From: a virus
Lineage: Duplodnaviria > Heunggongvirae > Uroviricota > Caudoviricetes
IMG/VR virus record: IMGVR_UViG_2541047887_000008
Length of the DNA stretch: 56,879 nucleotides
Direction: 5' to 3' (one strand)
The position numbers were made by a program. Positions 51,001-56,879 of the stretch are shown piece by piece. Every line of letters starts with the position of its first letter. Positions within the stretch are counted from its first letter, which is position 1.

Positions 51001-54000
51001 TACTAAGCACTTTTGAAGCCTGCTCATTAGCGGCATCTGAGAAGGTGCTTTTTCCATTCTCAACTTTGACACTTTTACCACAATTGATACGGGCTTGAAG
51101 TTGCTCATTAGTAAGTTCACTCGTAGAGCGATTATATAGCTCCTGACACATCAACATACCGTTACCTAAGCTTGTCGTAGTGTTCCCTGTATTCTTTTTA
51201 CTGGTAGCACCACCATCACTTGTGGTAGAAGTCCTTCCGGTCGCAGCCGAGATATCAGTTTGCCCTACAATAGCTTTAAAGTTAATTTCCTGAAAAGTTA
51301 ATTGGATTCTTAGACCGTTTGAAATTCCAACATCTTTAGAGGCTTTAAAACTCGTAATAATGGAATCATCAATTTTAATCCCATCTTTACAGACAACTGA
51401 GATAATTTGCTTCTGGTCACGCCAGTTTTCAAGAGTGTCTATGAAGTTTTCCACCAGCTTATTATCTCTTGAGATGAGGATACTACCGGATTCACCAACC
51501 ACAACCACACCACTAATAGTAATTGTTCTGGGTGAACGCATTACATTATCTGTTACAGCCTGCCCTGATTGCATATTTTGAGTGGTCACCATCATAGGGC
51601 TATCAAATTCCATATTCTCAGTAGCTGATAGTGACAAGAAATTATCTGGTTGGCCTTGTAGATGGAAGTAAACGCCATCTTTACCACTGTAACGAATCTG
51701 ATTAGAGTAAATCATTAAATTCCCCTTTGATTTCAAAGGCTTAGTGTATTTTAATCATTTTTAACCAAGCCTTTGATATATAAGTGTTTTCTCTGCTAAG
51801 CGTGTTGTACGTAAATTCTATTTTTCAGTGTGGGTATTAGCTTTACAGATTTCACGTAGCACACGGATATATAAGAAATCATTCTTCCTCTGGATAGCTT
51901 GAACTTAAGAGCATATCCTGCGTGAACTGGTCATTAGCCGATTGATTGAAAGTAAAGAAAGATGGTTCATCCGGTCTAACAATTGCTTCACCAGTGATAT
52001 TAACTGCTAGAGGCTTCTTGGTTTCTGCTGTTAAAGCGTCTACCTTGCGTGATAGTTCACTAATAGTCATTGCAAGTTGAGCATTGCTATTAACCATGTC
52101 ACCTGTAATAGCTGGTGGAGTTGATTGTGTGTTATTAACAAGGTTACTCATTGGCTCTTGGAAGTTAGCAATTTTATTAGCCGCACCATTAAACCAGTCA
52201 GCGATAGAACTACCAATCTTAGCCCATCCCTCATTAATTTGATTTGGTTTAGATGAATCGCCTTTGTATTCAGGGTTGAAGTTTGTCTCTGTTCCAATAC
52301 CTGATTGGTGTAAGTTCGGATTCTTAGCCGCTTCAGGGTTTAAATTATCAAGAGCAAAGTTTACCAACTCAGCATAAAGGACAACTCTACCGACTTTACT
52401 TAGCGCACCACCTGAAGAACCACCTTTACCAGCTTTAGCTTTATTAACAGCGTCACCGAATGAAGTAACAGCGTTTGCAAGGTTTAACAAGCCTCCAGCT
52501 ACATTTGCAGCCTTTTGAGCAGTAACAGCTACGGCAAGCATCTTCAAGCCATCAATTAACCCATCAGATAAACCATCAACAATTTTTTTCTGAGTGTCAT
52601 TTAGTGAACGGTAAGCTAATGTCACCTCATCGAAGAACGCTCTTACCCTGTAGCTAATATCAGTCAGACTATCGACACCATGCGACATATCGCTAATCAA
52701 GCTACCAAGAGATTCACCAAGACTTTTACCGCTTCCACCAAGAGCGTTTAAAAGCGTTGTTAGGCTTCTTGTGAAATCTTGAAGACCATTTTCAGAACCT
52801 TTGAAGATACTATCAAGCGTGGTATTCCAAGAGTTTTTCAAGTTCCCTAATTGTGCCTGAGTACTTTCTGAAATAGTTTTCCAGCCACCTTTAGCTGTGA
52901 TTTGTTTATTCAGTTCCTGAGTGACCTTCTGAAGAGTATCGGCAGATTTTAAAGCCCCCTTCTTCATGGCATCAAATAGTTCCTGCTCAGTCTTTCCGGT
53001 TGCTTTAGCGAATACCTGAACCATACCAGGAACAGCTTCAGCTAGTTGCCCCTTAAGCTCTTCAGCCATAACCTGACCCTTACCAGCCATCTGTGATAAT
53101 GCTGTTAATGCTCGCTTAATTTCTTCTTCACTTCTTCCCATCAAACGAGAATAGCCAATCATATTTCTAAAAAGCTCTTCAGAACCTTGAATACCCATAG
53201 ACTCTTTAGCTGAAGCACCGAAACCAGCAAACTGTGATTGCAGTTCAGCGATATCTAAACCCGTTGTTTGAGCTAATGACTTTGTGAACTCTTTTACTTG
53301 ATTTGCATCTTTATCAAATACGAAATCAATTGAACGTTCAGCACTTGCACGTTGAAGGCCAACTTCCATAACCTTCTGATAGCTGGCTAGTACAGCCTGA
53401 AAACTATAAATGGCTGTACCTGCTTTGATTGCACTTGTAGCTAATACATCCAGACTATTAGCTGCTCTGTCACCGTTAATGCTGGTGGATGTATGACCTC
53501 TGGCTTTAGTGATTGCTTCTCTGACTGAAGCATTTAACTGAGCTAACTTCTCATTGAATTTTGAATTATCCATTGACCCAGCTTTAGCAGATAGCCCGTA
53601 AAACTGAGATTTGATGTATTTCTGCAAAATAGGGTCAAAGCCCTTTAACTTGCTCATATTCGCTGAGTAAGCCGCTGTGATTGCTCTGTTGCCGCTAATT
53701 CGTGGCTGTCTTGGCTGTCTAAGTGGCTTTAAAGTATCCTCAATTTCCGTTTTAATCTTAAACACTCTAGTGTTTTTAAGACGCTGCTCAATCTTGGAAA
53801 CAGTCTTATCGACATTTCTTTCCATGACCTTGAGAGAATCATTTAAAGGCGTAGGGTTAACTTTAAAAGCTTTATTCAATCGCTTCTCAATTCGTGATGC
53901 TACCTGCATCGTTTGTTTCTCGGCTTTTTCCAGACCTTTTAAAACCTTCTGAGAGCTAAAACCTAGCTCAATCAGAAAATCATCAACTTTAAATTGTGCC

Positions 54001-56879
54001 ATTCATATTTTTTCACCTCTTTAAGCGTGAGCTACGTAAAAAATAATTTTTGGTGGGTATATCTGTTCAGGAGATTTCACGTAGCACATATACAAAAAAG
54101 GGAGAAACTACCGATATCACTCGATAATCTCTCCCCGTGTTATAGATTCGATAGAACCTATCTCATACACCCAACCAATCTTTTTTAATGCCTGACAAGA
54201 TAATGTAGTTCCGTTTCACCTATAATTTGAGCATCGGAAGGGATACGGTCGATACACCACTTTGGAATCTTGCGTGTTTTTGGTTTGCGTGAGGTGATAA
54301 TTTGATGTTTGGTTTTAATTCTTAAGGTTGGCTTATTTTGTAACTTTAAGCTTTCACAAACAGACCGAATAGTTTCATAGCGTTCTGTTAAATCAATCAT
54401 TCATCACCTCACATATGCATAATTAAACAGCCTTGCTAAATTCTCGTGGAACACTCAGAAAATCATTGAAGCTGATAATCTGTGCCAACTCTTGACGGTA
54501 CTCCTTAGCCAGCGCTTGATGGTCACTAATCAGCTTAGCCAGTCTTGATTTCAGCAAATTAATCTCATTTTCTCTTGCTTTCATCAGTTTCTCTTTGGCA
54601 ATTTCTTCAAGCTCAGCTTGTGATTTATCAGCAACAATTAGAGACAGTCGATGTGGTGCTCTGACAGCTCTTTCTGTACGAACAACTCTTTGACCTTCTG
54701 GTAAATCTGCAATCACTTTACCAATCTCTACAGGGTCATACCCCCAACCATCACGGTCTAGTCGAGAGAAATAAGCATAAGAATTGGTTTGAAGCTCCAT
54801 CAAAATAGCCATTTCGTCAATTTCGTCTTCAAGCTTGGACTGAATTTTCTCGTAAACACTTCTCATTGCTTCTTGAGAGTCTCGAAGGTCTTTGAAATAT
54901 TTGCGTTGCAGCTTCAGTTTCAAATCAAGCTCACATTCCTCATTCATCGAAAAATCAATTTCAACTCTTGGAATCTCGATTGGTTCTGGTGGAATATATG
55001 GACCTTTATTTACTTCGTGCGATTCCCGCCAAGCTCTATCAAAAGATTCACGCAAAGTTAATTCGTGAATATCAAGTGCACTTGGTCTGTTCTCAACAAT
55101 CATTTCGTGTTCATTACGAATGGACATTAATATTTTCCTCTTCTAGGATAATTTATGTTTCAGTTTTTAAAAAGCACACCTGACAGCCTACAAACTTAGA
55201 AGAGGCTCAAAAGGCGGTTTGCCAAGTATGCTTTTTAAAAGCTGAAAAAAGCCCTAAACATAATCTGTGAAGGGCTTTGAAGGTTTGCTTTATAACGTTA
55301 ACGAAGTTTCAGGAAAAACTTTCTTTAAAAGCTCTGTTTAAAAACTCTTAAAGAAACGCCCTAACTCATGATTAGGGCAAAGCTGTAAGGGTTCAATAAT
55401 GAATGATTAAGCACTTTTTGATATATAGCCTATCTAGTGGGCTAAATAGGCCATGTAGCGAAAAGCATTGCACCTTTCAGAATAACTATCCCTAGATGTA
55501 GATGGAATTGTTGAAAGAAATAAGAGAGAATTGCTCTCCCATACTTAAAATTATGGCATATTTAAGGTTATTTGTCAACAGCTTTTTAACAGATTGGTAA
55601 CATCAATTCTTATTTACCGTGTTACCTACCCAGCAACCAACAAATAAACCCAAAGCTGTCCAAGCAATTATTAAGCCCATTAATGCACCACCTTCGAATC
55701 CGTAACCAAAATATTGTCAGCGTACAAAATTGCTATAGCTGCCTTGAGATATTTTTCAGGGCTAACGCTGTATTTGTTCGTTTGCTCGATAACCAATCTT
55801 TTCATATGGCTGTCTTTAATTGGTAGCATCATTCGAGGCTCGTTAAACTCCACCGACTGAATAAAGTCAGAGATGTTTTCTGCATTATCAGCCATCAGCT
55901 TTAGTAATTTATCAAAATTAATTGCGATACCTACATCAGTGAAGTGTTGAAGCATGGTCACGGTGTCGTTATCAACAAAAATCTGTAATTCGTAATTGTT
56001 CATTTTTAAATTCCTCTAAAACACATCTCAGACCTCTTAAAATAGCCATTCTGAGGCCAGTAACCATGCGGGTTACAGAGGGAGTTGCACTGGCTGGTAA
56101 GGTAATTTATCAAATTAAGGTGCAACTCTGCCTGTAAAGTGCATTCTACCGTTACTTAGATGGTTATTTTGAATTGTCTTTATTAATCAATGATTTAACG
56201 TAGAAATACTGTCTCCGTGAAATACCATATTTTTCTGTGATGTATCGCTGAGATTGACCAGCATTTATGGCCTGAGTGATATCATCACGGTTATAGCGGT
56301 TACCACGGGATTTATATTTGTCACCATCCACATCTTCTGAGGTATTGAAGTCTTCAATCAGCTTAATTGCATTGCGAAGGTCATCTTCTGAGGCATAATC
56401 GAAGGTATGGATAATCTCAAAATCACCAGTATCTGCTGGTGCATTCTTCCATCTGGAGAAGCGGGATTTTAATTGCTGGTGTGTGAAGGGTTCAGCATTA
56501 CGAGTTAAATCTTTCCATGTTCCGTTATTCTCACGGACAAGATGACCTCTATGGCGATAAAACGCATGATAATCAAATGTGCATAGCATTAAACCTCCAA
56601 TTTATCAGCAAGCTTGCAAACCTTATCGCTCAAGACCTGAATCATTGAGCAGCCTGTACCTTTAGTTTGTGTTCTCAGTTCATCCAATTGCTCTACTGTG
56701 ATACGGATAGCCTTAGAACCCTCTGCAACGTCCTTGATAGCGTCAAACGGTGTAAGGGCTGTGTGTTCCTTCAGAATCTCACCAACAAGTGCTGTGTGGC
56801 TCATGGCTGGGTATTTGTCTTTGATTGCTGCCAGTCTGGAATATGCCTCTGGCAAAAGGCGCGTAACTGTGTGTCTCAT

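What the first reader, a model, noticed from the sequence alone, without database searches (positions are those of the whole stretch)
51797..54092. Conserved 75-bp element repeated directly upstream of the tape-measure gene and of the next gene
54021..54092 and 51797..51872 are about three-quarters identical and share an exact 17-mer (agatttcacgtagcaca). Each copy contains an internal inverted GCTACGT/ACGTAGC pair and sits just upstream of a Shine-Dalgarno and start codon on the minus strand. Two readings are possible: a duplicated regulated promoter/operator driving each gene separately, or directly repeated recombination sites flanking the 2.1-kb tape-measure gene, given the adjacent serine recombinase.
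Basis: seen in the sequence. Interest (0 to 1): 0.55.

Follow-up and report, generated by a model that had tools for sequence, protein, structure and literature searches.

The report
Conserved inverted-repeat element before two tail genes
The two 70-bp repeats are real copies of a previously unannotated inverted-repeat DNA element, also found in phage P1, other phages and plasmids, and they look like a binding site that controls the gene downstream rather than a recombination site.

Summary
The two copies (54024-54092 and 51799-51867, minus strand) share an exact 17-mer and are the only two in the window.

They are not a private duplication. They belong to a wide family of about 60-bp elements with three features:
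- Two inverted arms, consensus (TGC)GCTACGYRAAATCT(G).
- A spacer of exactly 27 bp.
- A C-rich box in the spacer, CCCCTGC at spacer position 12 in seven lineages.

Other members lie between loxP and cra/cre in phage P1, overlapping the annotated P3cre promoter. Further copies lie upstream of Cre-like genes in other phage-plasmids, next to terS genes in lambdoid phages, and in plasmid or ICE-like metagenome contigs. Rfam and RefSeq annotate none of them.

In the window they sit in a 12-kb serine-recombinase island that carries Felix O1-type tape-measure and baseplate genes.

My best reading (about 0.4) is a double-stranded, operator-like protein-binding site gating each downstream gene. The protein is unknown. 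An RNA leader hairpin (about 0.25) and a selfish hairpin-forming palindrome (about 0.2) remain open.

Recombination sites for the serine recombinase are not supported. The element does not resemble the att junctions, and none of 5,426 E. coli genomes carries a deletion product. A self-sufficient promoter is not supported either, because four islands lack copy A yet keep an intact, constrained tape-measure gene.

The parts
54024..54092 (-). Copy A of the element (whole, with 8-nt flanks), between an intrinsic terminator and the tape-measure RBS
   Evidence: Covariance-model hit of 70 bits, E 1.6e-18; sequence
54072..54088 (-). Copy A left arm, TGTGCTACGTGAAATCT (the exact 17-mer)
   Evidence: matches the family arm consensus
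54045..54071 (-). Copy A 27-nt spacer, with C-rich centre ATACCCACC at 54052-54060 and an A-run
   Evidence: Gapless alignment A2; the spacer is 27 nt in all 121 exact family matches
54032..54044 (-). Copy A right arm, ATTTTTTACGTAG. The inner half is degenerate and the outer half is conserved.
51799..51867 (-). Copy B of the element (whole). It starts 11 nt after the tape-measure stop codon and ends 83 nt before the Dit-like gene ATG.
   Evidence: Covariance-model hit of 67.6 bits, E 8.3e-18
51847..51863 (-). Copy B left arm, TGTGCTACGTGAAATCT
51820..51846 (-). Copy B 27-nt spacer (type 2), with C-rich centre ATACCCACAC at 51828-51837
51807..51819 (-). Copy B right arm, AGAATTTACGTAC
54099..54136 (-). 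Strong intrinsic terminator (16-pair stem plus T6) ending 7 nt before copy A
   Evidence: conserved in related islands, including those that lack copy A
51879..54002 (-). Tape-measure gene (707 aa) flanked by the two copies. SD at 54014-54019; an overlapping 5-codon mini-ORF at 53989-54006.
   Evidence: 30% aa identity to the Felix O1-type TMP
50942..51715 (-). Dit-like baseplate gene (257 aa) downstream of copy B
   Evidence: Pfam Dit_like, PHROG 3721; 72% aa identity to the Felix O1-type phage HMD-P10
51735..51774 (-). Extra leader hairpin between copy B and the Dit-like gene. It overlaps a second hairpin that covers the SD.
   Evidence: fold, z -5.1
49404..50927 (+). Large serine recombinase of the island (context). 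The island/yecE junction is near 49340-49352.
55550..55578 (-). Near-consensus sigma-70 promoter (TTGACA-17-CATAAT, with TG) heading the gene string that contains both copies. At least four terminator-like hairpins lie between it and the tape-measure gene.

Best explanation
Each copy is a member of a widespread family of about 60-bp tripartite inverted-repeat elements carried by mobile genetic elements.

The element has two 13-17-bp arms, consensus (TGC)GCTACGYRAAATCT(G). They are held exactly 27 bp apart around a C-rich box, CCCCTGC at spacer position 12 in the best-preserved members and ATACCCAC here.

I read it as a double-stranded DNA site bound by a sequence-specific protein: a dimer or two protomers on the arms, with a third contact or a bend at the central box.

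In this island the site lies in the leader of each of the two Felix O1-type tail genes. Copy A is between a strong terminator and the tape-measure RBS. Copy B is just after the tape-measure stop, ahead of the Dit-like baseplate gene. The bound protein would therefore gate expression of each gene separately. It could act as a repressor or roadblock, or as an activator of a weak TAnnnT -10-like hexamer that straddles the spacer/right-arm junction.

Shown: the family, its fixed geometry, the conservation pattern, and the positions relative to genes.
Inferred: protein binding and the regulatory effect.
Unknown: the protein.
For: 1. All 121 exact matches in viral contigs have a 27-nt spacer, although 15-40 nt was allowed.
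2. The arms keep one consensus in 29 spacer lineages from contexts of 37-62% GC, while the rest of the spacer is free. CCCCTGC occurs in 7 lineages, always at spacer position 12, and position 13 is C in 24 of 29.
3. The arms do not covary. The core pairs never vary and the covariation score does not exceed shuffles. Each arm separately matches the same consensus.
4. Over 24 lineages oriented by the C-rich box there is no bias of G.T over A.C (16 vs 25). The asymmetric box faces either way relative to the neighbouring genes. Both points fit recognition of duplex DNA.
5. In the island the inner half of the left arm (GAAATCT) stays invariant even though its pairing partner has decayed. It is therefore kept for its sequence, not for pairing.
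6. In P1 the element (nt 116-174) overlaps the -10 hexamer of the annotated P3cre promoter and the region just downstream of it, where the start site is expected. That is a typical operator position.
7. Every copy examined lies between predicted ORFs, and 443 E. coli genomes show no annotated feature under it.
8. A TAnnnT hexamer at the spacer/right-arm junction is invariant in all island copies and in the D6-like and L009 copies, where a gene starts 20-45 nt downstream.
Against: - No candidate binding protein. No gene is shared by all contexts, and the VF530 DNA-binding protein found next to two chromosomal copies is absent from phages.
- No sigma-70 promoter passes the scan in either copy.
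- Copy A is dispensable for keeping an intact tape-measure gene.
- Some lineages show signs of selection on a folded single strand. D6-like copies form stems of about 27 bp with 5-6 G.U and no A.C. VT2-Sakai has two compensatory pairs. Spacer sub-hairpins covary in some lineages (GCAGGG/CCCTGC vs GCAAGG/CCTTGC).
- Several copies lie inside operons (Rz-terS, TMP-Dit), where an operator is not expected.
Confidence: 0.4

Rival explanations
1. RNA leader stem-loop. The inverted repeat is transcribed as part of the gene's leader or intercistronic region and folds into a long hairpin. The hairpin is processed (for example by RNase III) or protects or occludes the mRNA. This would set the level of low-copy proteins (Cre-like recombinase, TerS, tape measure, baseplate hub) independently of upstream cistrons.
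For: - All copies fold as predicted. Copy B has z -5.0, and D6-like copies reach -31 to -41 kcal/mol with z -3.2 to -5.7.
- Oriented by the downstream gene, phage and island lineages show G.U:A.C = 25:9. D6-like copies show 5-6 G.U and 0 A.C over 27 positions.
- The VT2-Sakai copy changed TACGT/ACGTA to TGTGT/ACACA, which is two compensatory pairs.
- Many copies lie 20-85 nt upstream of a start codon on the coding strand, inside operons that need no promoter.
- The island genes lie behind several terminators downstream of one strong promoter, which suggests read-through or antiterminated transcripts.
- Islands without copy A still keep the tape-measure gene.
Against: - The arms are conserved in sequence with no covariation.
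- In the wider set the wobble bias disappears (16 G.T vs 25 A.C).
- The asymmetric box and spacer occur in both orientations relative to genes. In the P1 lineage the mismatch is on the cra/cre strand.
- The island stems are decayed: 13 of 19 pairs in copy A, z -1.46.
- No Rfam family matches, even at E<=5.
Confidence: 0.25
2. Selfish or single-strand-active palindromic element (REPIN-, MITE- or attC-like). The arms are terminal repeats recognised as a folded DNA hairpin by a transposase, HUH enzyme or recombinase encoded elsewhere. The copies spread between intergenic sites of phages, plasmids and islands and serve as hot spots for module exchange. Any effect on the tail genes is incidental.
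For: - The element occurs in unrelated intergenic contexts: lox-cre, terS, par/hns plasmids, DUF1173 and VF530 loci, and this island.
- It is present or absent at the A site.
- Spacer types are shuffled between A and B sites among islands.
- A 356-aa gene is inserted right next to the element in one P1-like phage.
- The ends read TG...CA in several lineages.
- Spacer sub-hairpins covary.
- Orientation is unrelated to transcription.
Against: - No target-site duplication at filled versus empty sites.
- Only 1-2 copies per element and at most 5 places per E. coli genome, where the two-copy islands are themselves common. P1 has one copy in the 50 kb scanned.
- Copies sit at the same position in every member examined within each lineage, which suggests stable inheritance.
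- No associated transposase was found among the recurrent neighbour gene families.
Confidence: 0.2
3. Directly repeated site-specific recombination sites for the adjacent large serine recombinase, allowing excision or exchange of the tape-measure gene.
For: - The two copies are in direct orientation around the gene, next to a serine recombinase.
- Tape-measure alleles are mosaic among islands.
Against: - The island's attL and attR junctions share nothing with the element.
- None of 5,426 complete E. coli genomes has the deletion junction, while 457 have the pieces.
- The family occurs in replicons where no large serine recombinase gene turned up among the ORFs near the element.
- The centre is asymmetric and 27 bp long, unlike the roughly 40-50-bp quasi-palindromic att sites known for this enzyme family (textbook knowledge, not tested here).
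Confidence: 0.03
4. A plain duplicated sigma-70 promoter that drives each gene constitutively, with the palindrome incidental.
For: - By eye, TGAACA-18-TATTTT in copy A and TAGAAT in copy B lie at a sensible distance from the RBS.
- A terminator lies directly upstream of copy A.
Against: - The promoter scan does not flag either copy.
- No -35 is conserved among spacer types.
- Most family members have CAGATT at that position.
- In terS-type copies the same arrangement is antisense to the gene.
- Islands lacking copy A keep the tape-measure gene under purifying selection.
Confidence: 0.07

Closest known systems
The inverted repeat between loxP and cra/cre of phage P1 (nt 116-174 of AF234172/NC_005856), which overlaps the annotated promoter P3cre
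   Same: It is a homologous member of the same family: 17-bp arms GCGCTACGTAAAATCTG / CAGATTTCGCGTAGCGC, a 25-27-bp spacer depending on where the arm ends are drawn, and a C-rich centre. The covariance model scores it at 80.8 bits. It sits about 30 nt upstream of an RBS of the type GAGGTGAAAAATG, as copy A does here.
   Different: The P1 record annotates only the promoter, not the repeat. The P3cre -10 hexamer TAAAAT exists only because of a G-to-A change in the arm that is specific to the P1 lineage. The spacer is inverted relative to the downstream gene. P1 has one copy in the 50 kb scanned, against two in the island.
Operators and centromere-like sites built from inverted protein-binding boxes around a bent centre, for example P1 parS (ParB box A ATTTCAC flanking an IHF site). 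This comparison is from memory.
   Same: Inverted half-sites at fixed distance around a distinct central element. The arm contains GTGAAAT/ATTTCAC, and CGTGAAATCT resembles the GGTGAAATCG of parS.
   Different: The spacing and box order differ. P1's own copies of the element deviate from box A at the two hypervariable arm positions. No Pfam family match, ParB included, was found for the small island proteins, and the Stx-type phages were not checked for ParB. The resemblance was not tested beyond reading the sequences.
PeSL 'promoter-early stem-loop' mobile regulatory cassettes of T4-type phages (from memory: Arbiol et al. 2010)
   Same: Short intergenic cassettes with a stem-loop, repeated upstream of genes, shuffled between sites and marking module boundaries.
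   Different: PeSLs carry a recognisable early promoter and occur in dozens of copies per genome. Here no promoter is detectable and there are one or two copies per element.
REP/BIME and REPIN extragenic palindromes of enterobacteria and pseudomonads (from memory)
   Same: Extragenic, hairpin-capable inverted repeats found between genes of an operon, sometimes stabilising upstream mRNA. The arms contain GTAG.
   Different: REPs are GC-rich, occur in tens to hundreds of copies on chromosomes and are tied to RAYT transposases. This family is low-copy, lies mostly on mobile elements, and has a fixed 27-bp spacer with a conserved box.
RNase III processing hairpins between genes of T7 and in lambda leaders (from memory)
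   Same: Long intercistronic hairpins just upstream of an RBS in phage operons. Sites within one phage resemble each other in sequence.
   Different: RNase III sites are defined by structure, not by a 17-nt conserved sequence. No cleavage data exist here, and the stems of the island copies are weak.
Large-serine-recombinase attP/attB sites
   Same: Imperfect inverted symmetry over about 50-60 bp, next to a serine recombinase gene.
   Different: No similarity to the island's own att junctions, no recombination products, and an asymmetric centre.

Membership tests
Sigma-70 promoter | -35 and -10 hexamers with 16-18-bp spacing at consensus quality | tested here: not met
   The scan of 50900-56879 flags neither copy at 9 of 12 matches or better. 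The best by eye is 8 of 12 in copy A only.
Sigma-70 promoter | Required for expression of the downstream gene | tested here: not met
   Copy A is absent in L001, L016, L165 and L166, which have intact tape-measure ORFs. L001 vs L016: dS 0.57, dN/dS 0.25.
Sigma-70 promoter | Primary transcription start inside or just after the element | not testable with these tools
   Needs 5' RACE or dRNA-seq.
Operator-type duplex DNA binding site | Two half-sites matching one consensus, inverted, at fixed spacing | tested here: met
   All 121 exact matches have a 27-nt spacer. Both arms match TGCGCTACGYRAAATCT in 24 lineages.
Operator-type duplex DNA binding site | Sequence conserved without covariation and without strand bias of wobble pairs | tested here: met
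   Covariation is not above shuffles and the core pairs are invariant. G.T:A.C = 16:25 over 24 lineages. The phage subset does show 25:9 when oriented by the downstream gene.
Operator-type duplex DNA binding site | An identified cognate binding protein | tested here: not met
   No gene family is common to all contexts. VF530 is absent from phages.
Large serine recombinase att site | Sequence related to the element's own attL/attR | tested here: not met
   Junctions read in the window and in L001.
Large serine recombinase att site | Recombination products between the two copies exist | tested here: not met
   A chimeric junction query gave 0 of 5,426 genomes with at least 80% coverage, while 457 have the pieces.
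Described structured RNA (Rfam 15) | Match to a family covariance model | tested here: not met
   No match at gathering score or at E<=5, in the window or in P1-like and D6-like loci.
Structured cis-regulatory RNA (undescribed) | Compensatory substitutions and strand-specific G.U | tested here: inconclusive
   For: two compensatory pairs in VT2-Sakai and the D6-like G.U pattern. Against.
Intrinsic terminator | GC-rich hairpin followed by a U-run | tested here: not met
   The copies are not flagged. The real terminator is the separate hairpin at 54136-54099.
MITE / REPIN-type mobile palindrome | Terminal inverted repeats | tested here: met
   17-bp arms.
MITE / REPIN-type mobile palindrome | Target-site duplication; many near-identical copies per genome | tested here: not met
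   Filled vs empty A sites show no duplication. There are 1-5 places per E. coli genome and 1 copy in the first 50 kb of P1.
Integron attC | R''(RYYYAAC) at the 5' end and R'(GTTRRRY) at the 3' end of the folded site | tested here: not met
   Only a chance GCTTAAC lies 3' of some island copies. It is in the wrong position and is absent from copy A.
Helper-phage (Felix O1-type) regulatory motif copied by a satellite | The same motif is present in the helper-type phage genome | tested here: not met
   The whole genome of phage HMD-P10 has no half-site within 2 mismatches beyond chance-level partial matches and no covariance-model hit.

The most novel reading that the evidence does not exclude
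The element is an undescribed, broadly distributed cis-element of gammaproteobacterial mobile elements, read by a still unknown conserved factor, either as duplex DNA or as a folded strand. It is found in the P1 lox-cre region, D6-like phage-plasmids, Stx-type phage terS leaders, par/hns plasmids and ICE-like loci. In this window it gates two Felix O1-type tail genes captured by a new 12-kb serine-recombinase island, which may be a satellite or a tail-assembly decoy aimed at virulent Felix O1-like phages.
Probability: 0.3. Interest if true: 0.7.

Novelty: new variant of a known kind. Interest (0 to 1): 0.5.

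Why it matters
A 60-bp element with invariant geometry is shared by the classic lox-cre region of P1, other phage-plasmids, Stx-type phages, plasmids and a common E. coli island. That implies a common trans-acting reader that nobody has named.

It would also add an annotation to thousands of sequences that currently show "none".

For the island itself, pieces of which occur in about 8% of complete E. coli genomes, the two copies are the obvious handles for testing two questions: whether its Felix O1-type tail genes are switched on by phage infection, and whether the island is a satellite or a defence decoy.

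Tried and rejected
- **Helper-promoter mimicry.** The island's Dit-like gene is 82% identical in DNA to Felix O1-like phages, but the full genome of one such phage has no copy or half-site. Rejected.
- **Serine-recombinase sites.** The att junctions are unrelated and no deletion junction occurs in 5,426 genomes. Rejected.
- **Known RNA family.** Rfam gave nothing at gathering score or at E<=5.
- **Literature.** A search for the arm sequences as text and three topic searches found nothing relevant. The ArgR/PepA paper on loxP concerns the other side of lox.
- **Other copies in the window.** Two half-site-like 11-mers at 255 and 36111 have no partner and are at chance level.
- **Covariation test.** Uninformative, because the arms hardly vary.
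- **MITE.** No target duplication.
- **Motifs read by eye and dropped because they are not conserved across lineages:**
  - A sigma-54 -24/-12 match, present only in one P1-like variant.
  - CRP, LexA, CpxR and NarL-like matches.
  - Chi and KOPS-like runs in the G-rich strand of the box.
  - A lambda operator half-site: TATCACCGCC in L168 and AACACCGCCA in P1.
  - A boxA-like CGCTTAAC 3' of the island copies.
  - The MOBQ nic-like TAAGTGCGC, present only in P1.
  - The P4 iteron TGTTCACC, present only in the terS type.
It is absent from phages.
- **Filled versus empty terS sites.** The relatives found were too distant to compare.
- **Wasted scan.** One viral scan was wasted because the palindrome matched on the other strand.

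Full report
**1. The observation**

The coding strand for this region is the minus strand.
- The exact 17-mer (TGTGCTACGTGAAATCT on the minus strand) occurs at 54072-54088 and 51847-51863. It occurs nowhere else in the window within three mismatches. Chance expectation is 0.12 matches, and 0 of 100 shuffles reached two.
- The two stretches are 72% identical without gaps over 67 nt and 71% in an alignment. Similarity ends at the flanks, so this is not a longer gene duplication.
- A covariance model built later from 21 family members finds exactly these two sites: 54024-54092 and 51799-51867, at 70 and 67.6 bits.
- Copy A ends 4-5 nt before the SD of the tape-measure gene. Copy B ends 83 nt before the ATG of the next gene, with another hairpin in between.
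- The gene identifications hold: TMP_3 / PHROG 4036 tape measure, a Dit-like baseplate protein, and a large serine recombinase.

**2. Where the copies sit**

Position 49352 to the end of the window is the first 7.5 kb of a low-GC island of about 12 kb inserted in yecE.
- A complete relative (L001, 91% identical) contains, in order: serine recombinase, Dit-like gene, tape-measure gene, several small ORFs, a Rep-like initiator and a Dam methylase. It has no capsid or terminase genes.
- Related islands occupy wrbA, yciI/tonB and lpxL sites.
- Pieces of the island occur in 457 of 5,426 complete E. coli genomes, and the element itself in 443. RefSeq annotates nothing under it.
- The Dit-like protein is 72% identical and the tape measure 30% identical to those of a Felix O1-type phage. 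In that phage the two genes abut without any spacer.
- In the island, a strong intrinsic terminator (54136-54099) ends 7 nt before copy A.
- The only near-consensus promoter lies 1.5 kb upstream at 55578-55550. Three more terminator-like hairpins follow it.

**3. The element is a family, not a private repeat**

A pattern made from the arms found further copies in viral contigs. A palindromic pattern that allowed 15-40 nt between the arms returned 121 exact matches, and every one had a 27-nt spacer. The contexts are:
- **P1-like phage-plasmids**, between loxP and cra/cre. In P1 the element is nt 116-174, and the -10 hexamer of the annotated promoter P3cre (TAAAAT, 124-129) lies inside the first arm. 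Nothing else is annotated there in a very densely annotated record. P1 has one copy in its first 50 kb.
- **D6-like and other phage-plasmids**, about 40 nt upstream of a Cre-like tyrosine recombinase gene.
- **Lambdoid phages**, about 30 nt upstream of terS and after Rz. VT2-Sakai has a diverged copy that the model still detects.
- **Next to Sf6-type terS genes**.
- **An SU10-type structural cluster**.

A metagenome scan added many lineages from contigs of 37-62% GC. These lie next to H-NS-like, ParA/ParG-like, DUF1173, VF530 and Cre-like genes.

Across 29 spacer lineages the pattern is consistent.
- The arms keep the consensus TGCGCTACGYRAAATCT(G), and only the Y and R positions vary freely.
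- The spacer is otherwise free, but it carries a C-rich box. The exact CCCCTGC appears in seven lineages, always at spacer position 12, and position 13 is C in 24 of 29.
- The island copies are somewhat degenerate members: the centre is ATACCCAC and the inner right arm has decayed. A few island copies (L002-B, L035-B) still have a perfect 14-bp repeat.

**4. What the element is not**
- **Not a Felix O1-type regulatory motif.** That phage genome has none.
- **Not a serine-recombinase site.** The island's att junctions are unrelated, and a synthetic junction that mimics recombination between the two copies matches no genome.
- **Not a described RNA family**.
- **Not a terminator**.
- **Not a classical MITE.** Filled and empty sites show no target duplication, and copy numbers are one or two per element.
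- **Not a self-sufficient promoter.**
  - Neither copy passes the sigma-70 scan.
  - No -35 is conserved.
  - Copy A is missing from four of about fourteen islands whose tape-measure gene is intact and constrained (dS 0.57, dN/dS 0.25 between two of them).
  - Copy B is present in all islands examined.

**5. Duplex DNA or folded strand?**

The evidence points both ways.

For a folded strand:
- All copies fold into a long hairpin.
- Oriented by the downstream gene, the phage and island lineages show more G.U than A.C (25:9). The D6-like copies form stems of about 27 bp with 5-6 G.U and no A.C.
- VT2-Sakai changed two pairs in a compensatory way.
- Some spacers contain a small sub-hairpin that covaries.

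For duplex recognition:
- The arms show no covariation, and each arm independently matches one consensus.
- Over 24 lineages oriented by the box, the wobble bias vanishes (16 G.T vs 25 A.C).
- The asymmetric box and the whole spacer occur in either orientation relative to flanking genes. P1 and terS-type copies face one way, and D6-like and island copies the other.
- The spacer length is invariant.
- In the island the inner left arm is kept although its partner has decayed.

I weigh the second set more heavily because it rests on the widest sample. My best explanation is therefore an operator-like site read as duplex DNA by an unidentified sequence-specific protein, which gates the downstream gene. 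I give it a confidence of only 0.4. The RNA leader hairpin gets 0.25 and the selfish or single-strand-active palindrome 0.2.

In P1, the overlap with P3cre comes from a lineage-specific G-to-A change that turns TGAAAT into TAAAAT. The promoter is thus a local innovation, not the ancestral function.

**6. How it would work in this island (inferred)**
- Transcription from the promoter at 55578 must pass several terminators before it reaches the tail genes.
- Each tail gene is preceded by one copy of the element.
- A TAnnnT hexamer straddles the spacer/right-arm junction in every island copy, 25-30 nt before the RBS region of the tape-measure gene.
- A protein bound to the arms could occlude or activate this weak start, or it could block read-through. 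Either way the tape measure and the baseplate protein would be set separately from the upstream genes.
- Spacer types are shuffled between the A and B sites among islands. The copies therefore also serve as points of homologous exchange.

**7. Novelty and verdict**

The repeat is real and non-random, and it belongs to a conserved family that Rfam, RefSeq and the P1 record do not annotate. I found no description in the searchable literature, but I could not search everything.

It is a new variant of a known kind, the protein- or structure-read inverted repeat in gene leaders. It is not a new kind of system. Its mechanism and its reader are unresolved.

Interest is 0.5. That is moderate for the element as such. 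It would be higher if a common reader protein exists, or if the island proves to be a satellite or decoy aimed at Felix O1-like phages.

Noticed in passing
window 49352-56879 (complete relative: L001 20035-32268): A 12-kb low-GC integrative island. It has a large serine recombinase, a Felix O1-type Dit-like baseplate gene (72% aa identity) and tape-measure gene (30% aa identity), a Rep-like initiator and a Dam methylase, but no capsid or terminase genes. It uses four att sites (yecE, wrbA, yciI/tonB, lpxL), and pieces occur in 457 of 5,426 complete E. coli genomes. There was no PADLOC hit and no paper was found. It is a candidate phage satellite or tail-assembly decoy.
   Followed up: partly
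window 55128-55578 (minus strand): A near-consensus sigma-70 promoter (TTGACA-17-CATAAT with an upstream TG) is followed by a leader of about 420 nt with three terminator-like hairpins before the 234-aa gene. This suggests an antitermination-controlled operon or a short abundant RNA.
   Followed up: no
window 51720-51774 (minus strand): Two mutually exclusive hairpins lie in the leader of the Dit-like gene: AAAGGCTTGG...CTAAGCCTTT and CCTTTGA...TCAAAGG. The second covers the SD, so this is a possible translational switch. It is conserved in most related islands.
   Followed up: no
window 53989-54006 (minus strand): A 5-codon mini-ORF (MNGTI, then a stop) has ideal SD spacing and overlaps the tape-measure start codon out of frame. 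Related islands have the same arrangement (MNNGTI). This suggests translational coupling.
   Followed up: no
window 1-48923: A separate lambdoid prophage also sits in yecE, giving tandem occupancy of the site. It carries IS009, STnc100, three tRNAs and C4/isrK RNAs. It ends with an Arm-binding tyrosine integrase gene at 47610-48923, directly next to the yecE fragment.
   Followed up: partly
window 44609-44673 and 45291-45355: A 65-nt direct repeat, 83% identical, spans an SD and a GTG start (GCAAAGGAGG...GTGAGC...). The two copies look like the starts of two paralogous genes in the neighbouring prophage.
   Followed up: no
L162/L019 (phage P1) nt 116-174: The -10 hexamer TAAAAT of the annotated promoter P3cre lies inside arm 1 of the element. 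It exists only through a P1-lineage G-to-A change; other lineages have TGAAAT or CGAAAT.
   Followed up: yes
L168 1563-2732: A P1-like phage has a 356-aa gene with no Pfam match inserted between the element and cra/cre. Its spacer carries TATCACCGCC, identical to a lambda operator half-site (recalled from memory).
   Followed up: no
L009 4555-4726: In a non-E. coli contig with an SU10-type adaptor gene, the element sits about 20 nt upstream of a 487-aa gene. An extra half-site there matches the window's 17-mer over its first 15 nt. This may be a second island type that carries genes of a virulent phage.
   Followed up: partly
L182 and L188 (metagenome contigs): In two diverged chromosomal contexts the element lies about 40 nt upstream of a gene for the VF530 DNA-binding protein (Pfam PF09905). 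Other metagenome copies lie near DUF1173, H-NS-like and ParA/ParG-like genes.
   Followed up: partly
L164 577-849: One island variant carries an HNH endonuclease gene among its small ORFs, and an IS3 element truncates its tape-measure gene.
   Followed up: no
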